The notes below the pieces were generated by a model. That model did not search any database, had not been told where the DNA came from, and saw only the letters and a program-made list of their open reading frames with translations. This document shows positions 14,019 to 18,048 of a DNA stretch of 64,000 nt, in pieces (within the stretch, counting starts at the first letter, position 1; each line of letters opens with the position of its first letter). This DNA comes from Candidatus Hecatella orcuttiae. Its GTDB lineage: Archaea; Thermoproteota; Bathyarchaeia; Hecatellales; Hecatellaceae. The stretch lies in assembly GCA_002011035.2 (NCBI GenBank), contig MTLY02000002.1:160001-224000 (forward strand), given 5' to 3'. Position numbers and translations under genes: made by a program.

Positions 14019-15035
14019 CTATTTCAGCATTTTTAAGGTCGAGTCGGTTGTCTTCATCGATTTTTCCACATCCGCCGACTTCAAAGCCGCTCTGATGGCG
14101 TCGATGTTCTCCGGTATTACGTCGGCCTCTTGGTGGACGGCTTGAAGATAGTGAACTTCGCCGTCGACCACCATTACAGACTCTCTCCAAACGCAGATTT
14201 CATAGATGTCCTGCCTAGGCCGGCCTAGGTCTCTGGCGAAATCGAAGAGGTGGGCGGTGGATATGAGACCCTCGTCCTTGCCTACGAGGAGAACGCGGGG
14301 AGCCCTTTGAAAGGCTTCGATCACGTCTTCACTTTTGACCGGCTGACGGAGGTCTGCGGAAACAGAGTGAACATGCATGTAGGTGTTGGGCACTTTCAAG
14401 GCGACTGTGGTGATGGGCAAGGTGGGCAGAACCGTGTTCACGTCAGGGCCGTGGTGGGAAGGCAGGGTTGTGGGGTCGGGGACGATGGCGTCTATGGGCC
14501 CCCTTTTTATGTCCTCAGGGTCAGCGGCTCTCCGTATGAGGGTTGCCCTGGCTTTCTTAACTCCGAAAACACTGTCCAGAGTATGGAGGGTTCTGCAGAG
14601 TCCTGTGGTGTTGCAGGATACAACCCTGATGGTGTCAGCTCCGTAGGCTTTGTCGTAGTTGCATTGAGCTACAAAGGAGACAGCGGCCACCCGGGCTTTC
14701 TCCCCTCCTTCAAAGACAGCCTTCACCCTCGCCTTCTCGTAGGCAGGCTTGTTTTTCTCGCCAACTCCTCCAGGTGTCGCGTCTACGATGATGTCCACTG
14801 TCTTCAGAAGGTCCTCCACCGTGCCTTCCACCTTGAGGCCGGCTTTTTCAAACTCGCCCACCCCCGCCTCACCCGAGGCATAGAGCGGGTAGCCTTTCTT
14901 CAAGGCCAGCTGGGCTTTGTAGTCGGGTTTGGTTTTGGCAACGCCGACGAGTTTCATATCCGGCTGGAGGGCTACGGCGTCGGCTACCCTCCGCCCTATG
15001 GTTCCGAATCCGTTAACTCCAACTTTTATAACCAT
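14019..15035 (-). CDS. gap: Glyceraldehyde-3-phosphate dehydrogenase, archaeal type II
   Basis: VGVNGFGTIGRRVADAV, RVVSCNTTGLCR, PSHHGPDV, HQEADVIPENIDAIRA. Confidence 0.95.
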   Translation of the reverse strand: MVIKVGVNGFGTIGRRVADAVALQPDMKLVGVAKTKPDYKAQLALKKGYPLYASGEAGVGEFEKAGLKVEGTVEDLLKTVDIIVDATPGGVGEKNKPAYEKARVKAVFEGGEKARVAAVSFVAQCNYDKAYGADTIRVVSCNTTGLCRTLHTLDSVFGVKKARATLIRRAADPEDIKRGPIDAIVPDPTTLPSHHGPDVNTVLPTLPITTVALKVPNTYMHVHSVSADLRQPVKSEDVIEAFQRAPRVLLVGKDEGLISTAHLFDFARDLGRPRQDIYEICVWRESVMVVDGEVHYLQAVHQEADVIPENIDAIRAALKSADVEKSMKTTDSTLKMLK

Positions 15036-15061: not shown

Positions 15062-15514
15062 CTATATATTTACAGTCGCCCTTTTAATGTTTTCAACGTA
15101 GGCAGCCAGACCTTCTACGTCCTTGACATCCCCTGAAAGGAGGCCTTTCAGCTTCAGCCAAAAGGTGAGGTTGGGGGCTTTACCGTGATGTTCAAGGTAG
15201 TGGGTCATTTTCCCAGCCAGCTGAGTGCCTCTCCTGTCGAAGTCGGTGAGGATGATGAGCTCCCTTTCCATCTTCAAAAGTTCATGGAACACGTCGTAGA
15301 GGGGGATCCTCCGGGTTTTCACGGAGAAGATCTCCCCCTTCACCCCCAAACTTCGGAGGGCATGGACGTCCTTGGAGCCCTCAACCACGATGACGGCTCC
15401 CTCCCGGCTTTTATCCACTATTTTCTCCACTAAGACGGCTAATTTTTCGGCTTTTTCCTGAAGGGAGCTGCTTAAAGGCCTTTTTCCACTGTTTTTCCTG
15501 TCCAAGAGAACCAA
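15062..15514 (-). CDS. Small Toprim domain protein (RNase M5-like)
   Basis: IVVEGSKDVHALRSLG, IILTDFDRRG, KDVEGL. Confidence 0.85.
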   Translation of the reverse strand: MVLLDRKNSGKRPLSSSLQEKAEKLAVLVEKIVDKSREGAVIVVEGSKDVHALRSLGVKGEIFSVKTRRIPLYDVFHELLKMERELIILTDFDRRGTQLAGKMTHYLEHHGKAPNLTFWLKLKGLLSGDVKDVEGLAAYVENIKRATVNI

Positions 15515-15554: not shown

Positions 15555-16675
15555 TTATCTGAAGGCTTTCTCCAACTCCACCATTCTTTGAAGGAGGTCC
15601 TCCTTTCCTTTAAAATGTCTTCTGACAGGCTCTAGGATTTTGATGAGGGCTTCTGCAACCCCGTTCTTGAGGTCAAGGGGGTGAATCTTTCCCGCGGCGT
15701 AGAGGGCCTCCAGCTGAGGGTAGCCTTCCACGTCCACGGGGCCTCCGAATTTTTCCTTCCTTTCTAGGCGAAGAACCTTCTGCTTGGCAAAGACCACATA
15801 CCGGGCTATTTCCATGACAGGGTTACCGGCAGCCTGCTTGGGGGGGCAGTAGGCTTCCATGAGCTTGGCCCTTATGTCCTCCGGGGAGTCGTGGATGTAG
15901 ATGCAGCTTCTGGGGATGCTTTTCGACATCTTGGAGCTGATCTGGAGGTTTAACGCCTCATCCTCATCGTACACGCCGCCCATTCTGCTGGAGGGCCCGG
16001 CTAAGCTGGGAAGCAGATGGGTGTGAAGGCACACAGGCTTTTTCAAGTGCAGCTTCTCAGCCACATCCCTCGCCAGCATGTGGGCTTTCCGCTGGTCCAG
16101 TCCAGCGCAGGCGCAGTCCACACCTAGCTCGAAGATGTCAGCCACCTGCATGGAAGGATAGATCAAAGAAGCCGCGTCCACGTCCGCAGGGTTCAACGCT
16201 CTGCCCATGATGGGAAGACAGCGGATCACCCTAGAAAGAGTGGCTTTCTTGGCTACGCGGAGAACGTTCTCCCAGTAGCGTTCCCTAGCCACCAGCTCTG
16301 AAGCCCAGAGGAACCTAACCCGGCTGGGAGTTAGCCCCAAGGCTGCGAATCCTTCTTTCAAGTAGGCGCCGCAGAGGCGGATGTTCTCCATGACCCCTCC
16401 GAGTTTGTTGTTGATCCAAGCATGCCAGTCGGCTAGGAAGATGGTGAAGTCGAAGCCGGCCTCCACCATGTCCGCTATCTTCGCCCCGCAGAGGAAGCCT
16501 GTGCCCAAATGCATTAATCCGGGCGGGGCTGTCGCAGCCGCCGCTGTCCGGAAGGCTCGAACCCCCAGTAGGCTTTGGGATGCTTTTCAGCCTCCAGCAA
16601 CTGGCGGAGTTCGCTGCGGGTGACGATTTCCTCGAGGTCCTTTTCCACAAGCATCAGCTTTTCTTCAATATCCAC
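15555..16675 (-). CDS. tyrS: Tyrosine--tRNA ligase, two exons (16675..16546 and 16516..15555), 363 aa after splicing
   Basis: AYWGFEPSG + L + MHLG (HIGH region), FLADWHAWINNK, YPSMQVADIF, GLDQRKAHML, KMSKS, HPLDLK. Probable start GTG 16675 (ATG 16714 is also in frame). Confidence 0.92.
16517..16545 (-). other. 29-nt bulge-helix-bulge (BHB) intron in tyrS mRNA
   Basis: mRNA reads UU-CCGG-AC^A-GCGGCGGCUG-CGA-CAGCCCCGC-CCGG-AU^U-AA. The 4-bp CCGG:CCGG helix is flanked by two 3-nt bulges, and canonical cuts give UCC GGA CUA AUG CAU. Confidence 0.88.
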
Positions 16676-16884
16676 GGATCTCTCTCCCGGGTTCCTCTCA
16701 TCTCCATACTTCATGAAGAAGCCTAAAAATTAAGTTTATGGAGCCGCCGATAGGGATAGGCTTTAGATGAGGAAAACATTTCCGGTGGAAGTGCCGCGAA
16801 CGAGAATGATTGGAGAGCGATTGTGGGTAAGGTTAATAGGATCATGAGAAGATTTATGATGAAACACACTGGAGTTGAGAGCTA

Positions 16885-18048
16885 TTGAAAGCTCAAGTCG
16901 CAATAGTAGGAGCCGGCATGACCCAGTTCGGTAAATTGAAGGGAGAGATGAGGGAAATCCACGCGGAAGCGGTTAGGCTTACCTTAGAGGATACAAGCAT
17001 ATCAGCCAAGGACATAGACGCCATGTACGTGGGAACATGGACCCCTGACTTGTTTCTAAACCAGCTTTTCCCCGCACCGATGCTGGCGGACTCCTTAGGG
17101 CTGAACAACATACCGGTGAGCCGAGTGGAGGATGCATGCGCAACCGGCAGCGTAGCTTTCCGGCAGGCTGCGATGGCAGTGATGTCCGGTCTCCACCGCC
17201 TAGTGCTGGTAACCGGGGTTGAAGTCATGACCCAGCGTCCCACCCGGGAATGCGTCAAAACAATAGCCTACGCCTCCGACCGCCTCTGGGAGCAGCCTTT
17301 CGGGATAACTTTCCCCAGCAGCTACGCCCTCCTAGCTTCTAGGCATATGCACAAGTACGGCACAACCCCCGAGCAGCTGGCCGCTGTGTCGGTTAAAAAC
17401 CATCGATACTCTGCGAAGAATCCCAAAGCCCAGTATGGAGAGGTTACCTTAGAGCAGGTTCTCAGCTCCAAGATGGTAAGCTGGCCCCTCCGCCTTCTGG
17501 ACTGCTGCCCCATCTCCGACGGCGCCGCCGCCTTGGTGATAGCTAGGGCTGAGGAAGCGAAAAAGTATACAGACACGCCGGTGTATGTGCTGGGGAGCGG
17601 CCAGGCGAGGGCTTCGCTTTCCCTCCATGACAGGCCCAGCCTTACGTCGATACCCAGCACCAAGCAGGCTGCCGAAACAGCCTACCGCATGGCCGGAGTG
17701 GAAGCCGGGGATGTGGATGTGGCGGAAGTTCACGACTGCTTCACCATAGCGGAAATTCTGGCTGTGGAAGATTTGGGGTTCTTCAAGAAGGGCGAAGGGG
17801 GAAAGGCTGTGGAAGAAGGCTCAACGGAGATAGGGGGGAAGATACCTGTCAACGTGAGCGGAGGCCTCCTGGGCAAGGGCCACCCCATCGGCGCCACGGG
17901 GGTCGCTCAGATGGTGGAAATATTCGAACAGTTGAGGGGGGAAAGCGGAAGCAGACAGGTCCCCGGCGCGGAGATAGGGCTGACCCACAACGTGGGAGGA
18001 ACAGGGGGGGTGGTGACGGTTCACATCTTCAGCGTCAAGGGAGGCTAG
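16885..18048 (+). CDS. Thiolase domain protein (acetyl-CoA C-acyltransferase family)
   Basis: VEDACATGS, CCPISDGAAA, AEVHDCFTIAE, GHPIGATG, HNVGG. Confidence 0.92.
   Translation: MKAQVAIVGAGMTQFGKLKGEMREIHAEAVRLTLEDTSISAKDIDAMYVGTWTPDLFLNQLFPAPMLADSLGLNNIPVSRVEDACATGSVAFRQAAMAVMSGLHRLVLVTGVEVMTQRPTRECVKTIAYASDRLWEQPFGITFPSSYALLASRHMHKYGTTPEQLAAVSVKNHRYSAKNPKAQYGEVTLEQVLSSKMVSWPLRLLDCCPISDGAAALVIARAEEAKKYTDTPVYVLGSGQARASLSLHDRPSLTSIPSTKQAAETAYRMAGVEAGDVDVAEVHDCFTIAEILAVEDLGFFKKGEGGKAVEEGSTEIGGKIPVNVSGGLLGKGHPIGATGVAQMVEIFEQLRGESGSRQVPGAEIGLTHNVGGTGGVVTVHIFSVKGG

What the first reader, a model, noticed from the sequence alone, without database searches (positions are those of the whole stretch)
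16500..16560. Canonical bulge-helix-bulge intron in the tyrosyl-tRNA synthetase mRNA, at the HIGH motif
Seen: tyrS is split between GFEPSG and MHLG. The minus-strand transcript reads CCUU-CCGG-ACA-[GCGG C GGCUG CGA CAGCC CCGC]-CCGG-AUU-AAUGC. That gives a 4-bp CCGG:CCGG helix, a 3-nt bulge on each strand (ACA, AUU), a GC-rich intron stem-loop and exon-exon pairing outside. Cutting after the second nucleotide of each bulge removes exactly 29 nt (16545..16517) and joins UCC GGA C + UA AUG CAU = S-G-L-M-H, restoring frame and motif spacing. Unspliced RNA hits TAA at 16516..16514. Established: the archaeal tRNA splicing endonuclease EndA cuts BHBs at these positions and RtcB ligates. mRNA BHB introns are rare; the classic case is crenarchaeal cbf5. 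I know of no report in an aminoacyl-tRNA synthetase. Inference: synthesis of this TyrRS depends on the tRNA-splicing machinery, possibly coupling it to maturation of intron-containing tRNAs, and this lineage may hide more mRNA introns annotated as frameshifts.
Basis: partly seen in the sequence, partly recalled or inferred. Interest (0 to 1): 0.95.

Follow-up and report, generated by a model that had tools for sequence, protein, structure and literature searches.

The report
tRNA-type intron splitting the tyrS gene
The only tyrosyl-tRNA synthetase gene of this archaeon is interrupted by a 29-base intron of the kind normally cut out of tRNAs, so an essential translation enzyme probably cannot be made until its mRNA is spliced.

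Summary
On the minus strand, tyrS is split between the GFEPSG motif and MHLG by 29 nt (16545..16517). The insert lies in a bulge-helix-bulge (BHB): a 4-bp CCGG:CCGG helix, 3-nt bulges ACA and AUU, and a GC-rich intron hairpin.

- **Comparison:** 27 distinct tyrS genes carry an insert of 20-53 nt at the same site. Cutting after the second base of each bulge restores the frame in 27 of 27.
- **Structure:** the central helix pairs in every sequence, and the helices show compensatory changes. RNAalifold predicts the same fold on its own.
- **Spread:** an interrupted-tyrS pattern hits 50 of 401 sampled Bathyarchaeia genomes (one spurious) and 5 of 301 Aenigmatarchaeota, with no control hits.
- **Host genome:** it has one tyrS, two EndA paralogues and RtcB. 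Its cbf5 carries the classic BHB intron in the catalytic Asp codon.
- **Missing:** no RNA data exist, so splicing is inferred.
- **Literature:** my searches found mRNA BHB introns reported only for cbf5 and one Haloferax 5'UTR.

Verdict: a real, conserved and apparently unreported protein-coding BHB intron, a new member of a known kind.

The parts
16546..16714 (-). tyrS exon 1: ATG at 16714, 56 codons plus the first base (C16546) of the Leu codon. It ends with the GFEPSG motif.
   Evidence: It is colinear with uninterrupted relatives such as L003-L007, L010 and L015. The true start codon was not tested.
16552..16556 (-). 5' strand of the outer (exon-exon) helix.
   Evidence: pair list: U-A, U-A, C-G and G-C around a C.U mismatch. 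Across 27 sequences it is 71% paired with no compensatory change, so it is a weak helix.
16548..16551 (-). Central 4-bp helix, 5' strand (CCGG). It lies in exon 1, in the Ser-Gly codons.
   Evidence: It pairs with 16519..16522. The helix is paired in 27 of 27 sequences, and 2 of 4 pairs show changes on both sides.
16545..16547 (-). Bulge 1 (ACA). The predicted 5' cut lies between 16546 and 16545.
   Evidence: The rule that cleavage falls between the 2nd and 3rd bulge residues comes from passages of PMC2738675.
16517..16545 (-). The 29-nt intron.
   Evidence: It is present without any difference in two Logan contigs (runs X2 and X4).
16523..16544 (-). Intron hairpin: 4 bp, a one-base bulge, 5 bp, and a 3-nt loop.
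   Evidence: MFE -14.1 kcal/mol, or -0.64 per nt, the most stable among frame-breaking candidates in the genome. The five basal pairs all show changes on both sides among relatives.
16519..16522 (-). Central helix, 3' strand (CCGG), inside the intron.
16516..16518 (-). Bulge 2 (AUU). The predicted 3' cut lies between 16517 and 16516.
16511..16515 (-). 3' strand of the outer helix.
15555..16516 (-). tyrS exon 2: the last two bases of the Leu codon, 319 codons beginning M-H-L-G, and the stop.
   Evidence: ORF 15555..16514. PF00579, E 2.7e-34. It is 44-70% identical to tyrS of 40 related genomes.

Best explanation
The 29 nt at 16545..16517 are a bulge-helix-bulge intron in the pre-mRNA of the only tyrS gene of a Bathyarchaeia archaeon (closest named records: Candidatus Hecatellales). 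The transcript folds so that the Ser-Gly codons of exon 1 pair with the 3' end of the intron, forming a 4-bp helix. That helix is flanked on opposite strands by two 3-nt bulges and closed by a stable intron hairpin. The splicing endonuclease EndA cuts between the second and third base of each bulge. This genome has two paralogous EndA subunits, so the enzyme is probably hetero-oligomeric. RtcB then joins the exons. The join rebuilds a Leu codon across the junction, placing GFEPSG, Leu and MHLG in one frame and yielding a 376-aa TyrRS. Unspliced mRNA ends in a 66-aa peptide. Shown here: the anatomy, its conservation and covariation, the frame restoration, and the presence of the enzymes. Inferred: cleavage and ligation in the cell, and that TyrRS synthesis depends on them.
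For: (1) The anatomy sits exactly at the stated coordinates, and the 52-nt local fold has the BHB-like structure as its MFE, -23.2 kcal/mol.
(2) Twenty-seven distinct tyrS genes have an insert at the same site: 26 from Bathyarchaeia and 1 from Aenigmatarchaeota. Lengths are 20-53 nt (10 are multiples of three, 4 leave remainder 1, 13 leave remainder 2). Excision by the BHB rule gives G, then L, then M or V, then H in 26. The Aenigmatarchaeota one gives G-M-A-H, matching its intronless kin, which have G-L-A-H. The 10 in-frame inserts all open with a stop within three codons (read by eye).
(3) Structure counts on alignment A1: the central helix is 100% paired, with 2 of 4 pairs changed on both sides. 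The inner stem is 97.8% paired, with 5 of 5 pairs changed on both sides. Of 500 shuffles, 0 reach the observed pairing or covariation. Partners slid by 1-3 columns pair only 28-49%.
(4) RNAalifold predicts the central helix, the 3-nt bulge and the inner stem without being told.
(5) The interrupted-tyrS pattern hits 50 of 401 sampled genomes of the class (one, G256, is spurious), with 0 hits for the reversed control. It hits 5 of 301 Aenigmatarchaeota with 0 control hits. Those five also differ by matched changes in the helix: GUGG with CCAU against GCGG with CCGC.
(6) The own genome has one tyrS; the only other match is E 3e-4. Every intron-bearing genome has a single match at E <= 1e-40.
(7) The genome has two EndA-family genes and one RtcB.
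[quoted passage not shown] That is the site where crenarchaeal cbf5 is reported to be spliced (passages of PMC2738675).
(9) The 29 nt are in the DNA of two Logan contigs at depths 36 and 13.4, with 0 differences. Both runs may be the source of this assembly.
Against: There is no RNA evidence of any kind, because no listed run holding the locus is RNA.

In an 81-nt context the single-sequence MFE (-37.8 kcal/mol) is a different fold. Enforcing the BHB costs 8.3 kcal/mol, giving -29.5.

The outer exon-exon helix expected of a strict hBHBh' motif is weak and does not covary.

In part of family f26 and in 3 of the 5 Aenigmatarchaeota cases, one pair of the 4-bp helix is G.A. The motif is therefore relaxed in some lineages.

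The covariation statistics come from related sequences, and the structure tested was derived from them, so both inflate the contrast with the controls.

The subunit roles and specificity of the two EndA paralogues were not tested.
Confidence: 0.88

Rival explanations
1. Translational bypassing (hopping), as recalled for phage T4 gene 60. The ribosome would take off at the Gly codon GGA (16549..16547), skip the hairpin, land on the second GGA (16520..16518) and resume, giving the same G-L-M-H protein without any RNA cut.
For: The central helix of the window is palindromic, so the same GGA stands just before both predicted cut sites, and a stable hairpin follows the first one. Reading by eye, 21 of the 49 true hits have such a second GGA: 20 from family f26 plus the window.
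Against: The other 28 of 49 interrupted genes have no Gly codon at the landing place; their 3' strands are CCAG, CUAG or CCGC. Yet they keep the same geometry and frame restoration. In the window the codon after the take-off GGA is CAG, not a stop. Where a stop does follow (GGA UAG in many relatives), the landing codon is missing. Compensatory changes between the take-off region and the 3' end of the insert are what an RNA helix predicts, not codon matching. The second GGA is a by-product of a palindromic helix. The gene-60 features are recalled from memory and come from no call.
Confidence: 0.03
2. A split TyrRS. Exon 1 would give a 66-aa peptide and exon 2 a separate 319-aa protein starting at the in-frame ATG, and the two would associate. 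The hairpin would be an intercistronic element.
For: A stop follows exon 1, and an ATG (GTG in G007) opens the exon-2 frame right after the insert in all 27 cases.
Against: That Met or Val is also present in uninterrupted relatives, so it is an ancestral residue and not a new start. A split gene gives no reason why a base-exact cut at BHB positions should rebuild a Leu codon and the frame in 27 of 27 inserts of three length classes. It also gives no reason why exon 1 bases should covary with the insert's 3' end. The break falls one residue before the catalytic His motif, inside one fold (Pfam model positions about 17/18). No Shine-Dalgarno-like or promoter analysis was done.
Confidence: 0.03
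3. A decaying pseudogene or an assembly artefact, meaning a spurious 29-nt insertion.
For: A metagenome-assembled genome with a frame-breaking insert in an essential gene looks like an error at first sight.
Against: Two Logan contigs hold the identical stretch at depths 36 and 13.4, though both may be the source. The same site is occupied in 49 other sampled species-level genomes from two phyla. Both exons are otherwise intact and 44-70% identical to relatives. It is the only tyrS in a 97% complete genome.
Confidence: 0.01

Closest known systems
BHB intron in cbf5 pre-mRNA of Crenarchaeota (Watanabe 2002, Yoshinari 2006 and Yokobori 2009; I read passages of PMC2738675 only and saw the two older papers only as references)
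   Same: It is a protein-coding gene with a short intron of tens of bases, defined by a BHB and cut between the 2nd and 3rd bulge residues. It sits between the first and second letter of a codon at a catalytic motif (the Asp of cbf5; here the codon before the His motif). Its distribution is patchy, implying gain and loss. The organisms have two EndA subunit genes. The same genome here also carries the cbf5 intron itself.
   Different: The host gene is an aminoacyl-tRNA synthetase, not a pseudouridine synthase. The lineages are Bathyarchaeia and Aenigmatarchaeota, not Desulfurococcales or Sulfolobales. Most cbf5 motifs are described as unconventional or relaxed, whereas the window's tyrS core is a strict 3-4-3 with a strong hairpin. 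Splicing of cbf5 has experimental support; that of tyrS has none.
Archaeal pre-tRNA and pre-rRNA BHB introns (hBHBh' motif)
   Same: The core geometry is the same, and presumably the enzymes are too (EndA, RtcB). The intron length falls within the 11-175 nt range quoted for tRNA introns in PMC2738675.
   Different: There is no tRNA body. The outer helix is made of coding sequence and is weak. The product is an open reading frame, so the cut must be exact to the base for a different reason.
BHB intron in the 5'UTR of HVO_1309 mRNA, Haloferax volcanii (PMC7714728, passages)
   Same: It is an mRNA substrate of the splicing endonuclease, and intron removal appears to be needed for efficient expression.
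   Different: That intron lies in the untranslated leader and does not interrupt the reading frame. It is a single-species case.
HAC1/XBP1 unconventional mRNA splicing in eukaryotes (mentioned in passages of PMC4090602 and PMC13149111; details recalled)
   Same: This is a 'works like' comparison only. A short intron is removed from an mRNA by an endonuclease plus a tRNA ligase, which changes the reading frame and so what protein is made.
   Different: The endonuclease there is IRE1, not EndA, and the splicing is stress-regulated. No regulation is shown here, and there is no family membership.

Membership tests
Archaeal BHB intron (EndA/RtcB substrate) | Two 3-nt bulges on opposite strands, separated by a 4-bp helix. 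| tested here: met
   Window. Across 27 sequences the helix is 100% paired, and both bulges are 3 nt in every sequence. Exception: part of family f26 and 3 of the 5 Aenigmatarchaeota cases have G.A at one of the four pairs.
Archaeal BHB intron (EndA/RtcB substrate) | Flanking helices on both sides (h and h' of the strict hBHBh' form). | tested here: inconclusive
   The inner (intron) helix is strong and covaries: 97.8% paired, 5 of 5 pairs changed on both sides. The outer exon-exon helix is 71% paired with no compensatory change. This fits a relaxed motif.
Archaeal BHB intron (EndA/RtcB substrate) | Cutting between the 2nd and 3rd bulge residue yields the functional product. | tested here: met
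   In silico, the frame and motif spacing are restored in 27 of 27 cases. The rule is taken from PMC2738675 passages.
Archaeal BHB intron (EndA/RtcB substrate) | The organism encodes the splicing endonuclease and the RtcB ligase. | tested here: met
   PF01974 is found twice, at 99.1 and 81.6 bits. PF01139 is found once, at 589.8 bits. The two EndA ORFs (184 and 189 aa) match different solved EndA chains best.
Archaeal BHB intron (EndA/RtcB substrate) | Spliced RNA and an excised (often circular) intron exist in the cell; EndA cleaves in vitro. | not testable with these tools
   No RNA holder is listed for the locus.
cbf5-type pre-mRNA intron (same homologous intron) | Located in cbf5, in the catalytic Asp codon. 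| tested here: not met
   The host gene is tyrS. The cbf5 intron is a separate element elsewhere in the genome, at G000:C3:211079-211098. The mechanism is the same, but it is not the same intron family.
Gene-60-type translational bypass | Matched take-off and landing codons, with a stop codon right after the take-off codon (features recalled). | tested here: not met
   The window has matched GGA codons, but the codon after the take-off GGA is CAG, not a stop. Of the 49 interrupted genes, 28 lack the landing codon (by eye).
Self-splicing group I/II intron or intein | A catalytic RNA core of hundreds of bases, or an in-frame protein-splicing domain. | tested here: not met
   The insert is 29 nt. 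No Rfam family reaches threshold in 16300..16800; the only hit is E 0.48 to an unrelated ribozyme on the other strand.

The most novel reading that the evidence does not exclude
The tyrS and cbf5 introns are not accidents. They may be members of a conserved class of protein-coding BHB introns that sit in the first codon position next to catalytic motifs of core RNA and translation enzymes. They would make synthesis of those enzymes conditional on the activity of the tRNA-splicing machinery, a checkpoint working like HAC1/XBP1 splicing. Their recurrence at the identical tyrS site in two phyla would reflect either great age or a site-specific insertion mechanism, such as reverse action of EndA and the ligase on exon sequences that can form half of a BHB.
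Probability: 0.2. Interest if true: 0.9.

Novelty: new member of a known kind. Interest (0 to 1): 0.78.

Why it matters
**A second conserved case.** By the papers I could search, archaeal introns inside protein-coding sequence have rested on a single gene, cbf5, for more than twenty years. A 2020 paper (PMC7714728) still states that cbf5 is the only other reported mRNA BHB intron besides its own 5'UTR case. A second conserved case in an essential aminoacyl-tRNA synthetase would show that EndA/RtcB splicing of coding mRNA is a recurring feature of archaeal gene expression, not a curiosity. It is present in roughly one in eight sampled Bathyarchaeia species genomes and in some DPANN archaea.

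**Evolution.** The case gives a clean natural experiment in intron gain and loss. At least 6 changes are forced on the TyrRS tree, and 11 is the minimum count.

**A testable link.** It makes the proposed connection between tRNA processing and synthetase supply open to experiment.

**Annotation.** Gene callers will report these tyrS and cbf5 genes as frameshifted, truncated or pseudogenes. That distorts completeness estimates and metabolic reconstructions for a large uncultured group.

Tried and rejected
**Single-sequence folding.** Folding 81 nt does not give the BHB; the MFE of -37.8 kcal/mol is another fold. I therefore relied on local folding, constrained energy and comparative structure.

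**Pfam on exon 1.** The exon-1 ORF alone gave no family at E <= 0.01.

**RNA evidence.** No RNA holder is listed among the 10 runs found. Of the four DNA runs laid, X6 and X7 put nothing on the stretch.

**First genome-wide scans.** The first BHB scans were too loose. They gave 34,723 raw motifs, 2,540 after an open-frame filter, and 172 after a codon-score filter. The codon-score filter also wrongly dropped the real cbf5 intron, whose left-flank score of 6.6 fell under my cut-off of 8.

**Rejected scan candidates.** Three candidates that looked promising are plainly neighbouring separate genes, judged by their translations by eye. They are C3:193986-194005, C1:297221-297242 and C2:430304-430360. 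The pairs look like phosphotransacetylase-like with acetate kinase-like, purF-like with purD-like, and two phage-like proteins.

**Refined scan.** After refinement, tyrS and cbf5 rank first and second among frame-breaking candidates. Nothing else is convincing. Relaxed motifs, introns over 100 nt and weakly coding flanks would be missed, so this does not show that only two exist.

**Open-frame length as a shortcut.** Using the open-frame length to spot introns undercounts. G037 and G356 have long open frames yet carry the intron.

**Other classes of the phylum.** The pattern found 0 of 341 genomes. It demands G-F-E and M/V-H-x-G codons that other classes often lack, so this is a weak negative.

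**tRNA-Tyr.** ARAGORN found 43 predictions and no GTA anticodon. RF00005 gave 30 hits, all among ARAGORN's. The coupling idea could therefore not be examined.

**Rfam.** No family covers the element.

**Supplements.** Supplementary files of the papers were not opened. Those of PMC7714728 and PMC2738675 may list further predicted mRNA substrates.
Full report
**What is there.** On the minus strand of the window a tyrS gene starts at 16714 and reaches the conserved GFEPSG motif. It is then interrupted, and the exon-1 frame ends at TAA 16516..16514. A second ORF, 15555..16514, begins M-H-L-G. It is a class-I Trp/Tyr synthetase: PF00579, E 2.7e-34, aligned from profile position 18 of 292.

Between the two ORFs the RNA reads as follows:
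- CCGG at 16551..16548
- ACA at 16547..16545
- a hairpin of 4 bp, one bulged C, 5 bp and a 3-nt loop at 16544..16523
- CCGG at 16522..16519
- AUU at 16518..16516

Passages of PMC2738675 state that cleavage falls between the second and third residue of each bulge. Cutting there removes 29 nt (16545..16517). The cut rebuilds a Leu codon from C16546 plus U16516-A16515, followed by M-H-L-G, giving a 376-aa protein.

**Is it more than chance?** One sequence cannot say. A loose BHB definition matches 34,723 places in this 1.75-Mb genome. In an 81-nt context the lowest-energy fold is a different structure: -37.8 kcal/mol, against -29.5 with the BHB enforced. A 52-nt local fold does give the BHB-like structure as its MFE, at -23.2 kcal/mol. 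The decisive evidence is comparative.

**Comparison with relatives.** A search of 40 related genomes with exon 2 found tyrS in all of them. Looking upstream showed two states. Some genes are uninterrupted, with GFEPSG followed directly by L or M, then M-H. Others have an insert at exactly the same place. Further pieces were fetched after a search of 400 genomes of the class. I picked 16 because their open frames were short: 14 had the insert and 2 did not. Four picked as long-frame controls had none.

Together with 80 loci from named public records (6 of 80 interrupted), this gave 27 distinct interrupted genes. Twenty-six are from Bathyarchaeia and one is from an Aenigmatarchaeota record. The closest named records are Candidatus Hecatellales and Bathyarchaeia genomes.

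Insert lengths run from 20 to 53 nt. Ten are multiples of three, four leave remainder 1 and thirteen leave remainder 2. In all 27, cutting after the second base of each 3-nt bulge restores the frame. The result is G, L, M or V, H; in the Aenigmatarchaeota gene it is G-M-A-H, where its intronless kin have G-L-A-H. The ten in-frame inserts all begin with a stop codon within three codons (by eye), so none can be read through.

**Structure conservation.** On a MAFFT alignment of the 27 regions (A1), I counted pairs for the proposed structure.
- The central helix is paired in 100% of cells, and two of its four pairs change on both sides (C-G to G-C, U-A to C-G).
- The inner stem is 97.8% paired, and all five counted pairs change on both sides.
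- None of 500 column shuffles reach the observed pairing (88.9% against 79.4 ± 0.9) or the covariation score (0.405 against 0.215).
- Sliding the 3' partners by one to three columns drops pairing to 28-49%.

Two cautions apply. The sequences are related, and the structure was derived from them, so both inflate such contrasts. RNAalifold, given only the alignment, predicted the same central helix, 3-nt bulge and inner stem.

The outer exon-exon helix is weak: 71% paired with no compensatory change. The motif is therefore better described as a strict 3-4-3 core with a relaxed outer helix.

**Distribution.** A degenerate pattern demands the flanking codons with 21-51 extra bases between them.
- It hit 50 of 401 sampled genomes of the class, with no hit for the reversed control.
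- One hit (G256) lies away from that genome's intact tyrS and is spurious.
- One known case (G009, 53 nt) is outside the gap range.
- By the tool's family codes the hits are: f1 5 of 13 besides the window's own genome (6 counting G009), f3 3/3, f7 2/2, f13 4/4, f18 6/6, f21 5/5, f26 21/59 and f35 2/2.
- In a sample of the whole phylum the pattern hit 10 of 60 genomes of the class and 0 of 341 from other classes. This is a weak negative, because other classes often lack the demanded codons.
- A version fitted to the Aenigmatarchaeota gene hit 5 of 301 genomes of that phylum with no control hits. The helix again differs by matched changes. Three of the five have a G.A opposition at one helix position, as does part of family f26.

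**TyrRS tree.** The tree has 124 exon-2 proteins, 30 of them intron-bearing, built with the quick method. Intron-bearing rows were enriched by my own choice of what to fetch. Short pieces, duplicates and L152 were left out. The intron needs at least 11 changes of state, and 6 are forced by well-supported branches. The window's gene groups with the intronless genus g5 (SH-aLRT 94), not with the intron-bearing part of its family. The pattern is one of repeated loss or gain, as reported for cbf5.

**The host.** The genome is 97% complete.
- It has one tyrS; the only other match is E 3e-4, presumably the Trp enzyme (not tested).
- It has two EndA-family genes. Their ORFs of 184 and 189 aa match different solved endonuclease chains best. 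The first matches 3p1z_B, 3ajv_B, 2cv8_A and 2zyz_B at E 1e-46 to 5e-34. The second matches 5x89_A and 1a79_A. From memory, the first group is crenarchaeal two-subunit enzymes, but the tool gives only the molecule name.
- It has one RtcB.
- The 29 nt are present without any difference in contigs of two public DNA runs, at depths 36 and 13.4. Both runs may be the source of the assembly.
- No RNA run holds the locus, so splicing is inferred, not observed.

**A second intron in the same genome.** While checking the classic case I found that cbf5 of this genome is also split. The structure is the outer helix GGGA with UCCC, bulges UGA and AAA, the central helix CCCU with GGGG, and a 5-bp hairpin. 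[quoted passage not shown] That is the same site as in Crenarchaeota (PMC2738675 passages).

An interrupted-cbf5 pattern hits 223 of 401 genomes of the class, with no control hits. My refined genome-wide scan ranks tyrS and cbf5 first and second among frame-breaking candidates. Three earlier candidates turned out to be neighbouring separate genes. The scan would miss relaxed motifs and long introns.

**Rivals.**
- *Ribosomal bypassing.* The window's palindromic helix places the same GGA before both cut sites, which makes bypassing thinkable. Twenty-one of the 49 interrupted genes share this, but 28 lack any landing Gly codon (by eye). The window also lacks a stop after the take-off codon, and codon matching does not explain the helix covariation.
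- *A split two-peptide enzyme.* This is suggested by the in-frame ATG after the insert, but that Met is ancestral in uninterrupted genes. A split gene explains neither the base-exact frame restoration nor the covariation.
- *Pseudogene or artefact.* This is excluded by recurrence, intact exons and single copy.

**What is known.** Eight completed searches of the held library found no report of a BHB intron in tyrS or any aminoacyl-tRNA synthetase, nor of cbf5 introns in Bathyarchaeia. PMC7714728 (2020, passages) states that besides its own Haloferax 5'UTR case only cbf5 had been reported. PMC2738675 (2009) says introns in other protein genes had been predicted but none confirmed. The references behind that remark concern Sulfolobus genomes and a rudivirus. 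Subscription-only papers and supplements were not searchable. No Rfam family covers the element.

**Verdict.** This is a real, conserved BHB intron in an essential synthetase gene, and a new member of a known kind. I give 0.88 confidence to the splicing mechanism, pending RNA evidence. The idea that it couples TyrRS supply to tRNA splicing remains open.

Noticed in passing
Outside the window: G000:C3:211079-211098 (locus L138:1479-1498, + strand): [quoted passage not shown] This is the site known from Crenarchaeota.
   Followed up: yes
Class-wide: An interrupted-cbf5 pattern matches 223 of 401 sampled Bathyarchaeia genomes, with no control hits. The cbf5 mRNA intron therefore seems common in this class. 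My searches found no paper saying so.
   Followed up: partly
L081 / L149-L153 (Aenigmatarchaeota genomes G742, G1023, G1035, G957, G794): The same tyrS site carries a 20-31-nt BHB-type insert in 5 of 301 sampled genomes of a second phylum. There are two sequence types, one of which has a G.A opposition in the 4-bp helix.
   Followed up: partly
Window 16547..16549 and 16518..16520 (minus strand): The central helix is the palindrome CCGG, and both bulges start with A. The same Gly codon GGA therefore precedes both cut sites, so hopping and splicing would give the same protein here.
   Followed up: yes
Whole genome G000: Only 30 RF00005 hits and 43 ARAGORN predictions were found (many of the ARAGORN ones with introns, some implausibly long). 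No tRNA-Tyr, Asp, Lys or Trp appears among the ARAGORN predictions. Many tRNA genes are probably disrupted in ways these tools miss.
   Followed up: partly
G037 (L022) and G356 (L171): In these two genomes the frame upstream of exon 2 stays open by chance across the intron. Judged by open-frame length the gene looks intact, which is a trap for automatic annotation and for my own first shortcut.
   Followed up: yes
Window 14019..15035 (-), 15062..15514 (-), 16885..18048 (+): By eye, the neighbouring ORFs look like an archaeal-type glyceraldehyde-3-phosphate dehydrogenase, a small Toprim-like protein and a thiolase-like protein. No search was run on them.
   Followed up: no
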